A stretch of 6,155 bases of DNA from a virus. Taxonomy: Duplodnaviria; Heunggongvirae; Uroviricota; Caudoviricetes. The stretch lies in the IMG/VR virus record IMGVR_UViG_2531839098_000015; one strand, 5' to 3'. A program made the position numbers. Positions within the stretch are counted from its first letter, which is position 1. Each line of letters starts with the position of its first letter. Of the stretch, positions 1 through 6,000 are shown in pieces.

Positions 1-3000
1 AACTGAAGAAAGGCTTCAAAATCGCCAGGCTGAATATCAAAATGAAATTAATCAACTATATGCGCTAGGTGTTAATTTTGATGATATTTAAAATTATTTT
101 TCCATTTTTTTGATTTTTCAACAGCTGAATATCGGAAATAGTCAGTGACGAACATCAGTATTTTTACATAATTACGTCCGGGTCATTGTCGGTTTATCTC
201 CTTTTACTTGTGGTAATTGAGGGATAACAACAAAAAAGGTGAGTTTTGCGACTCACCTTTTTTATTTGTTTCTTATTCAGAATCGATATCTTTTAAATCA
301 TCCTGAATCGCTTGCGCGTTCGGATTTTCCTGCGGTTTGAGTTCGCCGCCATTAGCGATGAAATCATGACGCTGGAAGTACGCTTCGCGCACCATAATAT
401 AAGGATCGGACGACTGACGCAGCAGACCGTCGGAATCCAGCAGCTGTGCGCGGGTTTCGATACCTTCAAGCGTCCATTTACCCACAGACATCGGCCAGGT
501 CAGCCAGGAAAGAACCGGGTAAAGACCATCCGCCATATCACCACCGTCATCACGCAGCGTGAAGCTACCGTAGAACGGTAATTGAACGTACGGGCCATAA
601 CCCACGCCATAATGACCAAGCGTACTACCGAAGCGGTGAGGTTCAGTCCGTTGCAGTTTCGGGTTCGCCATCCCTGCAACATCAATAAAGCCGCCCATCC
701 CCAAAATGGTGTTCAGGAAAAAGCGGGTAAAGTGGACCATCCCCTGATAAGGGTCGCCCTGCAAGAAGTAGTTAACCATCACCGCAGGTTCTTCAAGGTT
801 GCCGGTAAAATTGCTCAAACCGTTACGCGCCGGTTGCGGAACATAATCACGCCAGGCGACAGCGACCGGTCGAACAATATACGGGTCTAATACATTGAAG
901 TTAAAGTTGTACATGGTGCGGTTGAACCCTTCTAACGGGTCAGAACGCCCTTGCTGATCTGTACCGGAACTCGCACACCCCACCAGAAGCGTAGTTCCCA
1001 GAGCAAGCGCCGACAGGCGAAGCTTCATAAATGTCTCCCTGTTTTTTTATGGCTTATGCAGTTTGCCATCCATGACGGAACGATACCGTATCCGCCTGTT
1101 TAGGTGTGGGCGATTGTAACAGCACGTCAACTGATGTCCAGACGCCCTGATTTGCTGATTTGATCATAGCCTGGTAATCGCCGCCCTGTAGGCTACTTGA
1201 TTCTATAGAAACAGAAAAAGGCAAACGCGGCCTTTTCTACATTTTCAAAGTAACTCCCGCCAGTTGCGAGCAAAAAAGCCGCTACGCTTTAGCTATACGT
1301 GCTAATTCAAGAGAAGAGACCATGGACAACGACAAAATTGATCAACACAGCGACGAAATTGAAGTTGAGAGCGAAGAAAAAGAGCGTGGCAAAAAAATAG
1401 AAATAGATGAAGATCGACTCCCCTCCCGGGCGATGGCAATTCATGAGCATATCCGCCAGGATGGTGAAAAAGAGCTGGAACGCGACGCAATGGCACTACT
1501 GTGGTCAGCCATTGCGGCGGGTCTGTCGATGGGCGCTTCATTACTGGCAAAAGGGATATTTCATGTCGAACTGGAAGGTGTGCCGGGCAGCTTCTTGCTG
1601 GAGAATCTCGGTTATACCTTTGGTTTTATTATCGTCATTATGGCCCGCCAGCAATTATTTACCGAAAACACCGTGACTGCGGTACTACCCGTCATGCAAA
1701 AACCGACAATGAGCAACGTTGGCTTACTTATGCGGTTATGGGGCGTCGTGCTGCTGGGTAATATTCTCGGGACAGGTATTGCGGCGTGGGCATTTGAATA
1801 TATGCCAATCTTCAATGAAGAAACTCGCGATGCATTTGTCAAAATCGGCATGGATGTGATGAAGAACACCCCCAGCGAGATGTTTGCCAACGCGATCATT
1901 TCCGGCTGGCTGATCGCCACTATGGTATGGATGTTTCCTGCAGCGGGTGCGGCAAAGATTGTGGTGATTATATTGATGACCTGGCTTATTGCCCTGGGTG
2001 ACACCACTCACATCGTTGTCGGTTCTGTTGAAATCCTCTATCTGGTGTTTAACGGTACGCTGCACTGGAGCGATTTCATCTGGCCCTTCGCACTACCTAC
2101 TTTAGCGGGGAACATCTGCGGCGGCACCTTTATCTTCGCGTTAATGAGTCATGCACAGATCCGTAACGACATGAGCAACAAGCGCAAAGCAGAAGCACGC
2201 CAAAAAGCAGAACGTGCGGAAAACATTAAGAAAAATGATAAAAACCCGGCATAAATGGCGAGGGTTTAAGCAATCGAGCGGCAGCGTACTTACCCCGCAG
2301 TCCATTAGCGGGTATACTCATGCCGCATTGTCCTCTTAGTTAAATGGATATAACGAGCCCCTCCTAAGGGCTAATTGCAGGTTCGATTCCTGCAGGGGAC
2401 ACCATTTATCAGTTCGCCTCCATCCGTACCAGTCCGCAAAATCCCCTGAATATCAAGCCTTCCGTAGATTCACAGTTCGTCATGGTTCGCGTCAGATCGT
2501 TGACAGCCGCACGCCATGACGGGTAAAAAGTGGATAAAATAATTTTACCCACCGGATTTTTACCCATGCTCACCGTTAAGCAGATTGAAGCAGCAAAGCC
2601 GAAAGAAAAACCATACCGCCTACTCGATGGTAATGGCCTGTACCTTTATGTCCCTGTATCAGGGAAAAAGGTATGGCAGCTTCGCTACAAGATTGACGGT
2701 AAGGAGAAAATCCTGACCGTCGGAAAATATCCGCTTATGACTTTGCAAGAGGCAAGGGATAAAGCATGGACTGCGAGGAAAGACATCTCGGTTGGCATCG
2801 ATCCGGTAAAGGCGAAAAAGGCTTCGTCTAACAACAATTCCTTTAGTGCGATTTACAAGGAATGGTACGAGCATAAGAGGCAAGTCTGGTCAGCCGCCTA
2901 TGCGACTGAACTTGCAAAAATGTTTGATGACGACATTTTACCTATCATCGGCGGCCTTGAAATTCAGGATATTGAGCCGATGCAACTGCTGGAAGTAATC

Positions 3001-6000
3001 CGCAGATTTGAAGATCGCGGGGCAATGGAGCGAGCCAACAAAGCACGCAGAAGATGCGGCGAGGTTTTCCGTTACGCTATTGTCACCGGAAGGGCTAAAT
3101 ATAACCCGGCACCTGACCTTGCTGAAGCCATGAAGGGATACCGCAAGAAGAACTTCCCGTTTTTACCTGCCGACCAGATCCCGGCATTCAACAAAGCACT
3201 TGCAACATTTTCAGGAAGTATCGTATCTCTCATTGCGACCAAAGTTTTACGCTACACAGCACTAAGAACGAAAGAGCTTCGTTCCATGCAATGGAAGAAC
3301 GTCGATTTTGAAAACAGGATTATCACCATCGAGGCCAGTGTGATGAAGGGACGCAAGATTCATGTGGTTCCGATGTCGGACCAGGTTGTTGAACTTCTCA
3401 CTACGCTAAGCTCCATCACTAAACCAGTATCAGAGTTTGTTTTTGCCGGGCGCAACGATAAGAAGAAGTCAATCTGTGAGAACGCTGTACTGCTTGTGAT
3501 CAAACAAATCGGCTATGAAGGTCTGGAAAGCGGTCACGGATTCAGGCATGAATTCAGCACGATTATGAACGAGCACGAATGGCCTGCTGACGCTATTGAA
3601 GTGCAACTAGCACATGCCAACGGCGGATCTGTGCGTGGGATTTACAACCATGCTCAGTATCTCGATAAGCGCAGAGAAATGATGCAGTGGTGGGCGGACT
3701 GGCTTGATGGGAAGGTGGAGTAGTTATTACAACGATTCTTATAAAAAAGAAAAGCCTTGCACATATAGCAAAGCTTTTCACTTCTCAGGATTTCTTACAC
3801 CAAGAAACCATCAACAATAACAAAATGCAATTATTATATGTTAACTACATATGCATTTCATTAAAACCAATCATAAATGCTTATCATACTTTAATTGCTA
3901 TAATTGATTGCCTTCTATTTTTTCAACTCGAGTGGTTGAAACATCATTCTTAAATCCACTCCACCATTTTCTTAGCTTATTGTTTATTGGCTTTTCAAAA
4001 AACAAATACATCATTATTGATATAAATAATGAAGCAAACAGAGCCATTACTATAAATTTAATTACACTTATAGCACCAAGACCAGAAACATTAAAGAACT
4101 TGCTCAATGTACTGATTACTATAGTATGGACCAAGTAAAATGAAAAAGAAGCATCACCTAAAAGTATCATAACTTTATTTGATATTATTTTTGAAATAAT
4201 ACCACCATTAAACGAAAACACTAATATTGAAAAGGCCATTGATGGTATAAAAAGCGCATCATACTGTAATCCATTGCTATTTTGACTTTTTGCCACCATA
4301 TAGACAGACATTAGGATAAAGACTACAGATGATATTTCAGCAAATGATAGAACTAAATATGACGGCTTTGACTTAAACTCAAAATCTCCGGCCTGATTGC
4401 TGCGGATTGTCTCTGCCAGCCTGCCTCGGTCAATCTCACGACCAGCCATCTTGTCCTGAACATTGAAGTAGTCAATCGGACCGAGAGCAGCCATCCCAAG
4501 GTGATAAACAAACTCACCAAACCCTGAAGGATTCTGCTGATACATCTGAGCAACGTTGTTAGGGTCAACACCGACGCGCGCCAGTTCCTTGGCGTTGTTT
4601 TGCAGCCATGATTGCATTGCTTCTGGAGACGAGGCCGCAAGGCGTGCGCCAGCCGCTAAGGTGCCGATAGAATTGCGCTGGTCTTCGTCTGCCCACTTCA
4701 TACCAGACTGAATCTTCTCTAATTGACCAGGATATTTGGTCATCAGATCTCGAACCTGCTGTCGATCGCCGGACTGGATGGCTGCCGCATATTCTTTTTG
4801 GAATGCAGCATCCGCTTCCTGTTGCTTTGCGGCTTGAGATGTTTGAGCGACACTACCAAGTCCCTGCAACGCCTGAAGGCCGATGTTATTGCGACCTGAA
4901 CGCTCCATTTCGTTGTTCTGGCGAATATAGGCCAACGCCTCACTTACATCACTTGCCTTTGGCGCATTTGAGTTTTGCCCACCGATACCAGCAAGAAAAC
5001 CGCCTGAGTTGATTCCTTGTTGCCAAGTAGCCATATTCCCACCTTAAAACAATGATCCAAGACCACCGATAACACCGCCAGCAAGAGCACCAATACCAGT
5101 CCCAATAACAGGAACTGCACTACCAATCATTGCACCTGATGCGGCCCCACCAATGGCACCTGTAGCAAAACTCTGTAGGCCTGAAGGCTTATTCGCATTT
5201 GCTGCCGATGCTGCCGCCTGCTGTTGATACAATTGGCTGACATTGTTAGCGTAGTTCTGTCCGGCGTTTGCCTGACCTGTAAGAGCACCAAGGCCGATAT
5301 TTGCCAGATTGTTGTAGTTGTTCATCTGACCTGACAGCCAGTTTTGACCGAGTGTAGGTGCGATTGCTGCTAACTGGTTTCCTGTTGCTGTAGAGCCTAA
5401 TCCACCCGTTGCCTCTGCTGCTGCCAGACTCTGATAGCGCGCCTGCCCTGCAAGGTCTTTATACTGCTGAGAGTTGTAATACTGGTTAAGCGCCTGACCT
5501 TGCCCCTGAAGAGAGGAAAGATTCTGCAACTGTGATACGTACTGCTGAGCGAGTGGCGTGAACGGTGCAAGGTTTTGCATGTTCGTCTGCCACATTTCAC
5601 GCTGCAGTTCGATGCCCTTTTCAGTTGCGCGTGCCTGGGCTTTAGATCCGGAGTCGCTGCCGCCTTTCATATACCCATTCATGGGAAGCAATTTATTCTT
5701 GAAGCTTTCGCTAAGTACTAACATTTAATAGCTCCTCATATTTCGAACGAGGTAATTGATAGAGGGTGATTCCTACCGGTTTTCCGTTACTCATGTACGC
5801 ATCATCAAGGTGACCAACACGGGTAGCGCCAAGCAAACGGATAATTGCCCGTCCGTATTTGGTGGTGTCAGGAACCATGGTGATGCTGTTAAGGAATGGT
5901 GAGTTTTCGAGAAGCCATTTGCAGAATAATCGATGCCCTTGTAGTGCATATTCGCCACGGAATCCGGGGTCATACACCGCATGGCATTCAACAACGCTAT

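What the first reader, a model, noticed from the sequence alone, without database searches (positions are those of the whole stretch)
2330..3723. argW used as integration site by a P4/CPS-53-type integrase; right end not in window
The integrase gene begins about 160 nt after the tRNA CCA end and is co-oriented with it, the arrangement typical of tRNA-targeting tyrosine integrases. The att core is therefore expected within the last ~20 nt of argW (about 2380-2404), which is inference. I searched the rest of the window by eye for a second copy of GGTTCGATTCCTGCAGGGGACACCA and found only a 7-nt chance match (GATTCCT at 5768-5774). The element therefore extends past 6155 and its size is unknown.
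Basis: partly seen in the sequence, partly recalled or inferred. Interest (0 to 1): 0.4.

Follow-up and report, generated by a model that had tools for sequence, protein, structure and literature searches.

The report
Known O157 prophage remnant at argW

Summary
tRNA-Arg(CCT) argW lies at 2330-2404. An intact 385-aa integrase gene (2566-3723) follows 161 nt later on the same strand. The window holds no second copy of the argW 3' end.

The window is 100% identical to E. coli O157:H7, and the element is the known Sp16 at argW. The integrase is 98% identical to K-12 CPS-53/KplE1 IntS and 97-98% identical to the Sf6, HK620 and CUS-3 integrases. The arm 2405-2565 matches their attP/attL almost base for base, including the 16-nt core, the intS promoter and four arm-type sites.

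The right end is a 22/23-nt copy of the argW 3' end, 9,864 bp downstream (8,551 bp without a lineage-specific IS1203). An exact empty site occurs in up to 1,415 of 5,426 complete E. coli genomes.

New detail: the element is a chimera. A P22/Sf6-like remnant is fused by deletion to the right half of a different small argW element, which supplies the right-end repeat. No TorI excisionase and no cognate attR arm remain. This fits the published failure to detect excised circles.

Verdict: ordinary and already known.

The parts
2330..2404 (+). argW, tRNA-Arg(CCT), intact; the integration target
   Evidence: ARAGORN and Rfam RF00005 at 63.4 bits. The sequence is identical to K-12 argW.
2382..2404 (+). 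23-nt block TTCGATTCCTGCAGGGGACACCA, repeated with one G deleted at the right end of the element (L001 32247-32268, outside the window)
   Evidence: the repeat finder family D16, the sequence and alignment, and the length computation.
2390..2405 (+). 16-nt IntS core-type site CTGCAGGGGACACCAT (attL core)
   Evidence: Identity with Sf6 and HK620 attP starts exactly here. The core sequence is given for KplE1 in PMC2951348. Sf6 and HK620 annotate their attP core at the aligned position.
2406..2565 (+). attL P' arm, which overlaps the intS promoter. The -35 box TTGACA is at 2500-2505 and the -10 box TAAAAA at 2524-2529. Four GGRTAAAA arm-type motifs lie at 2521-2528 (+), 2532-2539 (+), 2543-2550 (-) and 2558-2565 (-).
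   Evidence: The arm is nearly identical to the K-12 CPS-53 attL and to Sf6/HK620 attP. The four motifs are the only ones in the window, against 0.5 expected. The promoter boxes and the four TAAA-containing P' sites are described in PMC2951348. The assignment of individual sites is by homology.
2566..3723 (+). intS (called intC in EDL933), a 385-aa tyrosine integrase, apparently intact
   Evidence: Pfam finds Arm-DNA-bind_3, Phage_int_M and Phage_integrase. It is 98% identical to K-12 IntS and 97-98% to the Sf6, HK620 and CUS-3 integrases. The catalytic motifs R234, K264, H324-x-x-R327, H350 and a C-terminal Tyr (360 or 365) are present. PDB 2kj8 is the central domain of CPS-53 IntS.
3749..3779 (-). 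Terminator-like hairpin between the convergent intS and acyltransferase-remnant genes
   Evidence: Consensus scan only: a 12-pair stem followed by a T run. No function was tested.
3898..5034 (-). Chimeric ORF of 378 aa. The N-terminal half of a P22 gp20-like ejection protein (about 4385-5034) is fused in frame to the C-terminal part of an O-acetyltransferase (3898 to about 4384). The fusion is a deletion scar.
   Evidence: Pfam finds Inj_translocase at residues 12-217 and Acyl_transf_3 at 230-343 (the latter at 25.9 bits, below the 31-bit cut-off). PHROGs matches ejection-protein families at 1-217 and an O-acetyltransferase family at 219-364. DNA homology to P22-like phages starts at about 4385. 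The acetyltransferase part is only 38% identical to its nearest phage relative, TL-2011b.
5044..5724 (-). P22 gp7-like DNA ejection protein gene
   Evidence: Pfam P22_gp7, E = 6e-90. The DNA is 86-95% identical to Lederbergvirus phages including Sf6.
5711..6095 (-). P22 gp14-like (DUF2824) gene, with its 5' end cut off by the IS1203 insertion
   Evidence: Pfam DUF2824 matches residues 18-144 to profile positions 24-150. The ATG at 6154 lies inside the IS.
6096..6155 (.). First 60 nt of an IS1203/IS629 copy (1,310 bp, 3-bp target duplication CCA). It is lineage-specific and absent at this position in EDL933.
   Evidence: The terminal inverted repeat TGAACCGCCCCGGGTTTCCTGGAGA lies at L001 26096. 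EDL933 and many other O157 genomes match only 1-6095.

Best explanation
The window holds the left junction (attL) of Sp16, a defective prophage island of E. coli O157:H7.

**How it arose.** A P22/Sf6-like temperate phage carrying the IntS/TorI 'argW recombination module' integrated by tyrosine-recombinase crossover. The crossover was within the 16-nt core CTGCAGGGGACACCAT, which the phage attP shares with the 3' end of argW. This left an intact tRNA gene. Next to it lie the phage P' arm, which contains the intS promoter and four IntS arm-type sites, and then intS reading away from the tRNA.

**How it behaves.** By homology with KplE1, intS is transcribed from a promoter inside attL and is repressed by its own product. 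This was shown experimentally for the EDL933 copy.

**What happened afterwards.**
- One deletion fused the gp20-like ejection gene to an O-acetyltransferase remnant.
- A second, larger deletion ran from the tail-needle gene through the rest of the phage. It removed torI and the cognate attR and ended inside a second, smaller argW-specific element that lay in tandem to the right.
- In the window's lineage, an IS1203 then landed in the gp14-like gene.

**Present state.** The island is 9,864 bp long. It is bounded on the right by the second element's copy of the argW 3' end, which has lost one G. With no excisionase and no cognate P arm, it is most likely fixed in the chromosome.

**Shown versus inferred.** Shown: the anatomy, the homologies, the empty sites and the tandem intermediates. 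Inferred: the order of events and the immobility, although the published negative PCR for circles supports immobility.
For: **Identity of the window.** It is 100% identical to O157:H7 genomes. 'Sp16 (argW)' is listed for strain Sakai in PMC3519850.

**Module membership.**
- IntS matches K-12 IntS at 377/385 residues.
- The attL arm is nearly identical to K-12 attL and to Sf6/HK620 attP, with identity beginning at the core.
- The promoter boxes and four GGRTAAAA motifs are present.
- The EDL933 argW-intC promoter is repressed by IntC (PMC2951348), and EDL933 is identical to the window over 1-6095.

**P22-like content.** gp7, the gp20 N-terminal half and gp14 lie in the window. An Sf6-type tail needle knob lies just beyond it.

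**It is an insertion.**
- The synthetic empty-site query is matched in single 600-nt pieces at 98-99.5% identity; up to 1,415 of 5,426 genomes cover at least 80% of it.
- 1,862 of 5,426 genomes have argW followed directly by intS. In the others listed, homology stops at 2404-2406.

**Right end.** It is a 22/23-nt repeat.

**Chimera.**
- There is no TorI homologue and no KplE1-type attR arm anywhere in the 46-kb locus.
- L001 28020-29253 and 31131-33000 are 94-95% identical to the right part of an independent element at argW.
- That element has its own 428-aa integrase, 31% identical to IntS. It also has an AlpA-like regulator, a rolling-circle Rep, a serine recombinase and perfect 23-nt direct repeats.
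- The predicted tandem junction torI-core-int2 exists in 36 genomes. It was verified end to end in strain SCEC020023.

**Immobility.** Asadulghani et al. score Sp16 as integrase present and excisionase absent, with no excision, circularization or packaging detected (PMC2669165).
Against: - The order of events (small element first, phage second, then deletion) is inferred from gene order and tandem examples in other strains. It is not reconstructed on the O157 lineage.
- IntS alone might still catalyse rare recombination between the attL core and the degenerate right-end core. Asadulghani et al. note that Sp4 and Sp14 excise without an excisionase.
- The individual arm-type and TorI sites in 2406-2565 are assigned by homology to K-12. 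They were not tested on this sequence, which has five substitutions in the arm relative to K-12.
- The catalytic tyrosine is assigned by motif only; both Y360 and Y365 are candidates.
Confidence: 0.9

Rival explanations
1. The island is one still-mobile integrative element. IntS excises it by recombining the argW 3' end with the downstream repeat.
For: intS is intact and its catalytic motifs are present. A 22/23-nt direct repeat flanks the island. Some Sakai prophages excise without an excisionase.
Against: There is no TorI-type directionality factor and no cognate attR arm. The right-end core has a 1-nt deletion in its centre. No circular form, excision or packaging of Sp16 was detected in Sakai, with or without mitomycin C. 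The island is 100% conserved in place across the O157 genomes listed.
Confidence: 0.05
2. The island is a single degraded prophage. Its right-hand genes (truncated Rep, a 470-aa protein, a serine recombinase) and its right-end repeat are native to the same P22-like phage.
For: Sp16 has historically been treated as one prophage. Phage genomes are mosaic.
Against: The right 4.2 kb has no megablast match in 50,697 phage records. It is 94-95% identical to the right part of independent 7.7-10.5 kb argW elements that have their own integrase and perfect 23-nt repeats. Left of the core, the right-end repeat carries tRNA-like TTCGATTC, as those elements do. The Sf6, HK620 and KplE1 arm has AGTAGATGT there instead. 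Tandem arrays of an IntS prophage plus this element exist.
Confidence: 0.05
3. The integrase and downstream genes are conserved core genes that happen to lie next to argW. There was no insertion.
For: None beyond their fixed presence in the O157 genomes listed.
Against: Only 197 of 5,426 genomes hold most of the window. Up to 1,415 have the exact empty site. Other genomes carry different occupants at the same point, namely CPS-53 with the gtr genes in K-12 and the small element. G+C content drops to 0.34-0.37 in parts of the island, against about 0.48-0.50 in the yfdC/mlaA flank.
Confidence: 0.01

Closest known systems
Sp16 of E. coli O157:H7 Sakai. The EDL933 equivalent is, from my memory only, CP-933Y.
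   Same: It is the same element. The window is 100% identical to O157:H7 chromosomes, and to EDL933 over 1-6095. Sp16 is listed at argW. It is described as severely degraded or chimeric, with integrase present and excisionase absent. Without the IS, the island measures 8,551 bp. That matches my recollection of the published Sp16 size, which I did not verify with the tools.
   Different: The window's lineage has an extra IS1203 in the gp14-like gene. The papers I read do not spell out that the right half and the right-end repeat derive from a separate small argW element.
KplE1 / CPS-53 of E. coli K-12 (IntS/TorI recombination module; Panis et al. 2007 and 2010)
   Same: It uses the same tRNA target and the same 16-nt core. 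The integrase is 98% identical. The attL arm is nearly identical, with the same promoter and arm-type sites. Negative autoregulation of the integrase was shown for both the K-12 and the EDL933 copies.
   Different: K-12 keeps torI and a cognate attR with a perfect core, and it can be excised. O157 has neither. The cargo also differs: gtrABS-like yfdGHI in K-12 against an O-acetyltransferase remnant plus P22-like ejection genes here.
Lederbergvirus phages Sf6, HK620 and CUS-3 (P22-like podoviruses that integrate at argW)
   Same: The integrases are 97-98% identical and the attP P' arm and core match. The layout is the same: int next to a serotype-conversion gene, followed by tailspike and ejection genes on the opposite strand. 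The ejection genes are homologous, and the tail needle knob is of the Sf6 type.
   Different: Only about 5.6 kb of the roughly 39-kb phage genome survives. The acetyltransferase remnant is on the opposite strand to Sf6 oac and is not closely related to any phage gene in the collection.
Small argW-specific integrative elements, seen in strains D10, 'capsule spontaneous mutant 21a' and SCEC020023. I know of no published name for them.
   Same: They supply the right 4.2 kb of the O157 island and its right-end repeat, at 94-95% identity.
   Different: In O157 the left half of this element is deleted. The missing parts are its integrase, the AlpA-like regulator and the N-terminal part of Rep.

Membership tests
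IntS/TorI argW recombination module (KplE1, HK620, Sf6) | IntS-type tyrosine integrase next to argW, on the same strand and downstream of the tRNA | tested here: met
   It matches K-12 IntS at 377/385 residues and is 97-98% identical to the Sf6 and HK620 integrases. The geometry is shown.
IntS/TorI argW recombination module (KplE1, HK620, Sf6) | 16-nt core CTGCAGGGGACACCAT at the argW 3' end in attL | tested here: met
   An exact match lies at 2390-2405. Identity with attP starts there. The core is defined in PMC2951348.
IntS/TorI argW recombination module (KplE1, HK620, Sf6) | attL P' arm that carries the intS promoter and the IntS arm-type sites | tested here: met
   The attL alignment with K-12 has 99% mean column identity. 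[quoted passage not shown] Autoregulation of the EDL933 copy is published.
IntS/TorI argW recombination module (KplE1, HK620, Sf6) | TorI/HkaC-type recombination directionality factor gene next to attR | tested here: not met
   tblastn of TorI against the whole 46-kb locus finds nothing better than E = 6. Asadulghani et al. also score excision as absent.
IntS/TorI argW recombination module (KplE1, HK620, Sf6) | Cognate attR: a duplicated perfect core preceded by the phage P arm | tested here: not met
   The right-end core is CTGCAGGG-ACACCA, with one G missing. The preceding arm has no similarity to the K-12, Sf6 or HK620 P arm. It does match the arm of the small argW element.
Tyrosine recombinase (Phage_integrase, PF00589), P4-like subfamily | Catalytic domain with the R-K-H-R-H-Y residues, plus an N-terminal Arm-DNA-bind_3 (DUF4102) domain | tested here: met
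   Pfam finds PF00589 (E = 1e-38), PF22022 and PF13356. The motifs R234, K264, H324, R327, H350 and Y360/365 are present. Residues are assigned by motif, not by a structural alignment.
P22-like (Lederbergvirus) prophage | Complete virion, lysis, replication and immunity gene sets | tested here: not met
   Only gp7, the gp20 N-terminal half, gp14 and a tail-needle C-terminal fragment remain. It is therefore a remnant, not a prophage that could produce virions.
Integrated mobile element / genomic island | Presence/absence polymorphism with a precise empty site, and flanking direct repeats derived from the target | tested here: met
   The empty site occurs in up to 1,415 of 5,426 genomes, and the listed hits are single 600-nt pieces. 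The repeats are 23 and 22 nt long.
Integrated mobile element / genomic island | Current ability to excise as a circle | not testable with these tools
   Published PCR for circular forms in strain Sakai was negative for Sp16 (PMC2669165).

The most novel reading that the evidence does not exclude
Sp16 is not one decayed prophage. It is a deletion fusion of two different argW-targeting elements that once sat in tandem. Its right half represents a family of small (about 7.7-10.5 kb) argW-specific integrative elements that may not yet have been described. These carry their own P4-type integrase, an AlpA-like regulator, a rolling-circle Rep, a variable cargo slot and a serine recombinase. On this reading, the intact and autoregulated but partnerless intS might persist because it still acts in trans on incoming IntS-type phages. 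The chimera itself is well supported. The probability given here is for the small element family being truly undescribed and biologically meaningful.
Probability: 0.3. Interest if true: 0.25.

Novelty: already known. Interest (0 to 1): 0.1.

Why it matters
It matters little beyond bookkeeping. The argW locus is a well-studied hotspot. The IntS/TorI module has been dissected biochemically, and Sp16 has been catalogued since the O157 genomes were published.

The practical value is twofold. It gives the exact boundaries: attL core at 2390-2405, and the right end 9,864 bp beyond the tRNA. It also explains why Sp16 is fixed: the cognate attR and torI were lost in a deletion that fused the phage remnant to a neighbouring small element.

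argW is also used by Stx2a phages in other O157 lineages, which insert at the 5' end of the tRNA gene. Knowing what occupies each side of the tRNA therefore helps when interpreting typing by stx-phage insertion site.

Tried and rejected
- **Full-length second copy of the argW 3' end.** I searched the 46-kb locus for the 25-nt sequence with up to 3 mismatches and found none. The right-end copy has a 1-nt deletion, so only the seed-based repeat finder picked it up.
- **TorI homologue or KplE1-type attR arm.** I looked in the O157 locus and found neither.
- **Phage match for the right 4.2 kb.** Megablast against the phage collection gave no match.
- **Known defence genes in the cargo.** I scanned the cargo proteins of the island and of the related small elements against PADLOC. 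Only a weak partial hit for a ParA-like protein came up. The 470-aa O157 cargo protein has no Pfam or PADLOC hit and falls in a PHROG of unknown function.
- **csc/DUF4942 segment as part of the insertion.** I considered this and rejected it, because that segment is present next to argW in the empty-site genomes.
- **Stx2 phage integrase.** VT2phi_272 gave a 100% integrase hit, so I considered whether the window's integrase belongs to an Stx2 phage. I rejected this. That record simply includes the flanking argW and Sp16 intS. The Stx phage has its own, different integrase on the other side of the tRNA.
- **Technical note.** Loci L002-L004 and L007 were not available to the Python sandbox, so some comparisons used pasted sequence.

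
Full report
**1. Observation**

ARAGORN finds one tRNA gene in the window, tRNA-Arg(CCT), at 2330-2404 on the + strand. Rfam agrees and finds nothing else. The next long ORF on the same strand is 2530-3723. RefSeq starts it at the ATG at 2566, which gives 385 aa and lies 161 nt after the CCA end.

The 25-nt argW 3' end occurs only once in the window, even with three mismatches allowed. The 7-nt GATTCCT at 5768-5774 exists, and there is another copy at 5011-5017. Three copies against 0.8 expected is unremarkable.

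**2. Source and identity**

The whole window is 100% identical to several E. coli O157:H7 chromosomes. One is strain 4276, from which I took the window plus 20 kb on each side as L001 (window coordinate = L001 coordinate minus 20000). EDL933 and many other O157 genomes match 1-6095 at 100% identity.

The flanks are ordinary core genes: mlaA (273-1028, - strand) and yfdC (1322-2254, + strand). The literature lists 'Sp16 (argW)' as a Sakai prophage (PMC3519850). Asadulghani et al. describe Sp16 as one of four prophages too chimeric or disrupted to assign to a phage family. They score it as integrase present, excisionase absent and replication defective. They detected no excision, circularization or packaging (PMC2669165).

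**3. The integrase and attL**

The protein has the P4-type domain set Arm-DNA-bind_3, Phage_int_M and Phage_integrase. It matches K-12 CPS-53/KplE1 IntS at 377/385 residues. It is 97-98% identical to the integrases of the P22-like phages Sf6, HK620 and CUS-3. The solved central domain of CPS-53 IntS (PDB 2kj8) matches at E = 3e-68. The catalytic motifs are present: R234, K264, H324-x-x-R327, H350 and a C-terminal Tyr.

When the window is aligned with Sf6 and HK620 attP, identity begins exactly at CTGCAGGGGACACCAT (2390-2405). It then runs almost unbroken to the integrase start. The same arm is nearly identical in K-12 attL, where the alignment shows 99% mean column identity.

That 16-mer is the published duplicated core of KplE1 (PMC2951348). 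The published intS promoter boxes are at 2500-2505 (TTGACA) and 2524-2529 (TAAAAA). Four GGRTAAAA motifs, the only ones in the window, cluster at 2521-2565. Two are on each strand, and the first overlaps the -10 box. This fits the four TAAA-containing P' arm-type sites described for KplE1, whose P'1 site overlaps the -10 box.

Panis et al. cloned this very promoter and integrase pair from EDL933, under the name argW-intC. They showed negative autoregulation like that of K-12 intS. So what the left end does and how it works is established, not speculative.

**4. Right end and proof of insertion**

In L001 the only repeat of the argW 3' end is TTCGATTCCTGCAGGG-ACACCA at 32247-32268. It matches 22 of the 23 nt at 2382-2404, with one G missing. 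The inserted DNA, from after the CCA end to the end of the repeat, is 9,864 bp. It is 8,551 bp without the 1,310-bp IS1203 and its 3-bp target duplication.

I joined 300 nt ending at the argW CCA to the 300 nt that follow the repeat and searched 5,426 complete E. coli genomes. In 1,415 genomes, one place covers at least 80% of the query. The 30 listed hits are single 600-nt pieces at 98.3-99.5% identity.

Separately, 1,862 genomes have argW followed directly by an intS gene. In the others listed, homology to the window stops at 2404-2406. The island is an insertion, and its left boundary is the tRNA 3' end.

**5. What the island contains**

*Genes inside the window.* After intS comes a terminator-like hairpin (3749-3779, - strand). 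Then, on the - strand, there is a 378-aa chimeric ORF (3898-5034). Its residues 1-217 are the N-terminal half of a P22 gp20-type ejection protein. Its residues from about 219 to 364 are the C-terminal part of an O-acetyltransferase. DNA homology to P22-like phages begins at about 4385. The acetyltransferase part has only a 38%-identical phage relative. Next come a gp7-like gene (5044-5724) and a gp14-like DUF2824 gene (5711 onward).

*IS1203.* At 6096 an IS1203 begins, and the last 60 nt of the window are its terminus. It replaces the first codons of the gp14-like gene and is absent at this position in EDL933.

*Genes beyond the window.* These are a C-terminal fragment of an Sf6-type tail needle knob gene, a 215-aa ORF, a 470-aa ORF of unknown function, a small ORF, a serine recombinase and then the right-end repeat.

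*Comparison with Sf6.* The layout of int, then a serotype-conversion gene, then tailspike and ejection genes on the opposite strand mirrors Sf6. The region between gp20 and the acetyltransferase has been deleted.

**6. The island is a chimera of two argW elements**

The O157 locus has no TorI homologue and nothing resembling the KplE1, Sf6 or HK620 P arm that should precede a cognate attR. Left of the core, the right-end repeat carries TTCGATTC, which is tRNA-like. The phage arm reads AGTAGATGT at that position.

The right 4.2 kb has no megablast match in the phage collection. However, L001 28020-29253 and 31131-33000 are 94-95% identical to the right part of a small element found at argW in other E. 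coli. In strains 'capsule spontaneous mutant 21a' (L006) and D10 (L007), that element is 7.7-10.5 kb long. It has these features:

- its own 428-aa integrase, with the same domain set as IntS but only 31% identical to it;
- an AlpA-like excisionase/regulator;
- a rolling-circle Rep, of which the O157 215-aa ORF is the C-terminal part;
- a variable cargo region and a serine recombinase;
- in L006, perfect 23-nt direct repeats TTCGATTCCTGCAGGGGACACCA.

The arm preceding its right repeat aligns with the O157 arm.

I then built the junction expected if an IntS-type prophage had integrated to the left of such an element: torI, the IntS core, the small element's arm and its integrase. I found it as a contiguous match in 36 genomes. 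In strain SCEC020023 the full array is yfdC, argW, intS, a roughly 41-kb lambdoid prophage, torI, the core, the second integrase, the small element, the DUF4942 remnant and csc.

The simplest history for O157 is therefore as follows. The small element arrived first. The P22/Sf6-like phage then integrated into the regenerated argW. A deletion from the tail-needle gene into the small element's Rep gene followed. It removed most of the phage, torI, the cognate attR and the second integrase. The order of events is inferred; the anatomy and the intermediates are observed.

**7. Consequence**

The surviving intS has an intact attL. Its partner site has a 1-nt deletion in the core and a foreign arm, and there is no directionality factor. 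I infer that the island is fixed in the chromosome. This agrees with the published failure to detect circular Sp16 and with its 100% conservation in place across the O157 genomes listed. A residual trans activity of IntS on incoming IntS-type phages is possible but untested.

**8. Comparison with known systems, and novelty**

The element is Sp16. Its left half is a textbook member of the IntS/TorI argW module, except that two defining features, TorI and a cognate attR, were tested and are missing. It is the left half of that module attached to a P22-like remnant. The only point I did not find stated in the papers I read is the specific origin of the right half and of the right-end repeat. Asadulghani et al. 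do already call the backbone 'chimeric or highly disrupted'.

I rate the finding as already known and of low interest.

Noticed in passing
window 3898-5034 (- strand); junction at about 4385: An in-frame fusion ORF joins the N-terminal half of a P22 gp20-like ejection protein to the C-terminal part of an O-acetyltransferase. This is a deletion scar. The acetyltransferase part is on the opposite strand to Sf6 oac. Its nearest phage relative, TL-2011b, is only 38% identical.
   Followed up: partly
window 6096-6155 (L001 26096-27405): The window ends inside an IS1203/IS629 copy with a 3-bp target duplication (CCA). It interrupts the gp14-like DUF2824 gene, and the annotated ORF borrows its start codon from the IS. 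EDL933 and many other O157 genomes lack this insertion, so it could serve as a lineage marker.
   Followed up: partly
L005 (phage VT2phi_272 record) 2400-3839; equivalent to window about 2330-2354: In other O157 strains an Stx2a phage (Oslovirus PA2 type) sits on the upstream side of argW. Its own, different integrase is there, and its annotated att overlaps the 5' end of the tRNA gene. Both ends of argW are therefore used as attachment sites. In this window the 5' side is unoccupied. The 100% integrase hit to that phage record arises because the record includes the flanking Sp16 intS.
   Followed up: partly
L006 5136-12838, L007 5137-15590, L008 20300-30700: This is a family of small argW-specific integrative elements. 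Each has a 428-aa P4-type integrase, an AlpA-like regulator, a rolling-circle Rep, a variable cargo slot (a ParA-like protein, or an 821-aa plus a 330-aa protein, or a 470-aa protein) and a serine recombinase. L006 has perfect 23-nt direct repeats. The cargo proteins have no PADLOC or Pfam assignment, so the cargo slot might be worth screening for defence or accessory functions.
   Followed up: partly
L001 32448-39370 (right of the island): Downstream of the right-end repeat lie a DUF4942 gene fragment and the csc sucrose genes, here with cscK split by a second IS1203. They replace dsdC and the 5' part of dsdX, which K-12 has at this position. This block is also present in the empty-site genomes, so it is an older and separate island at the same hotspot.
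   Followed up: no
L004 (K-12) 12276-12291, just upstream of torI: K-12 CPS-53 carries a 16-nt stretch, TTGCAGGTTCGATTCC, that is identical to the T-arm region of argW (window 2375-2390). It lies about 300 nt left of the CPS-53 attR core. It may be a vestige of another attachment site, or it may be chance (blastn-short E = 0.003).
   Followed up: no
L001 18847-19878 (just left of the window) and window 1-272: The segment between fadL and mlaA has low G+C (0.34-0.38) and encodes a hypothetical protein. The protein differs in length between strains: 343 aa here and 415 aa in L006 and SCEC020023. This may be another variable locus.
   Followed up: no
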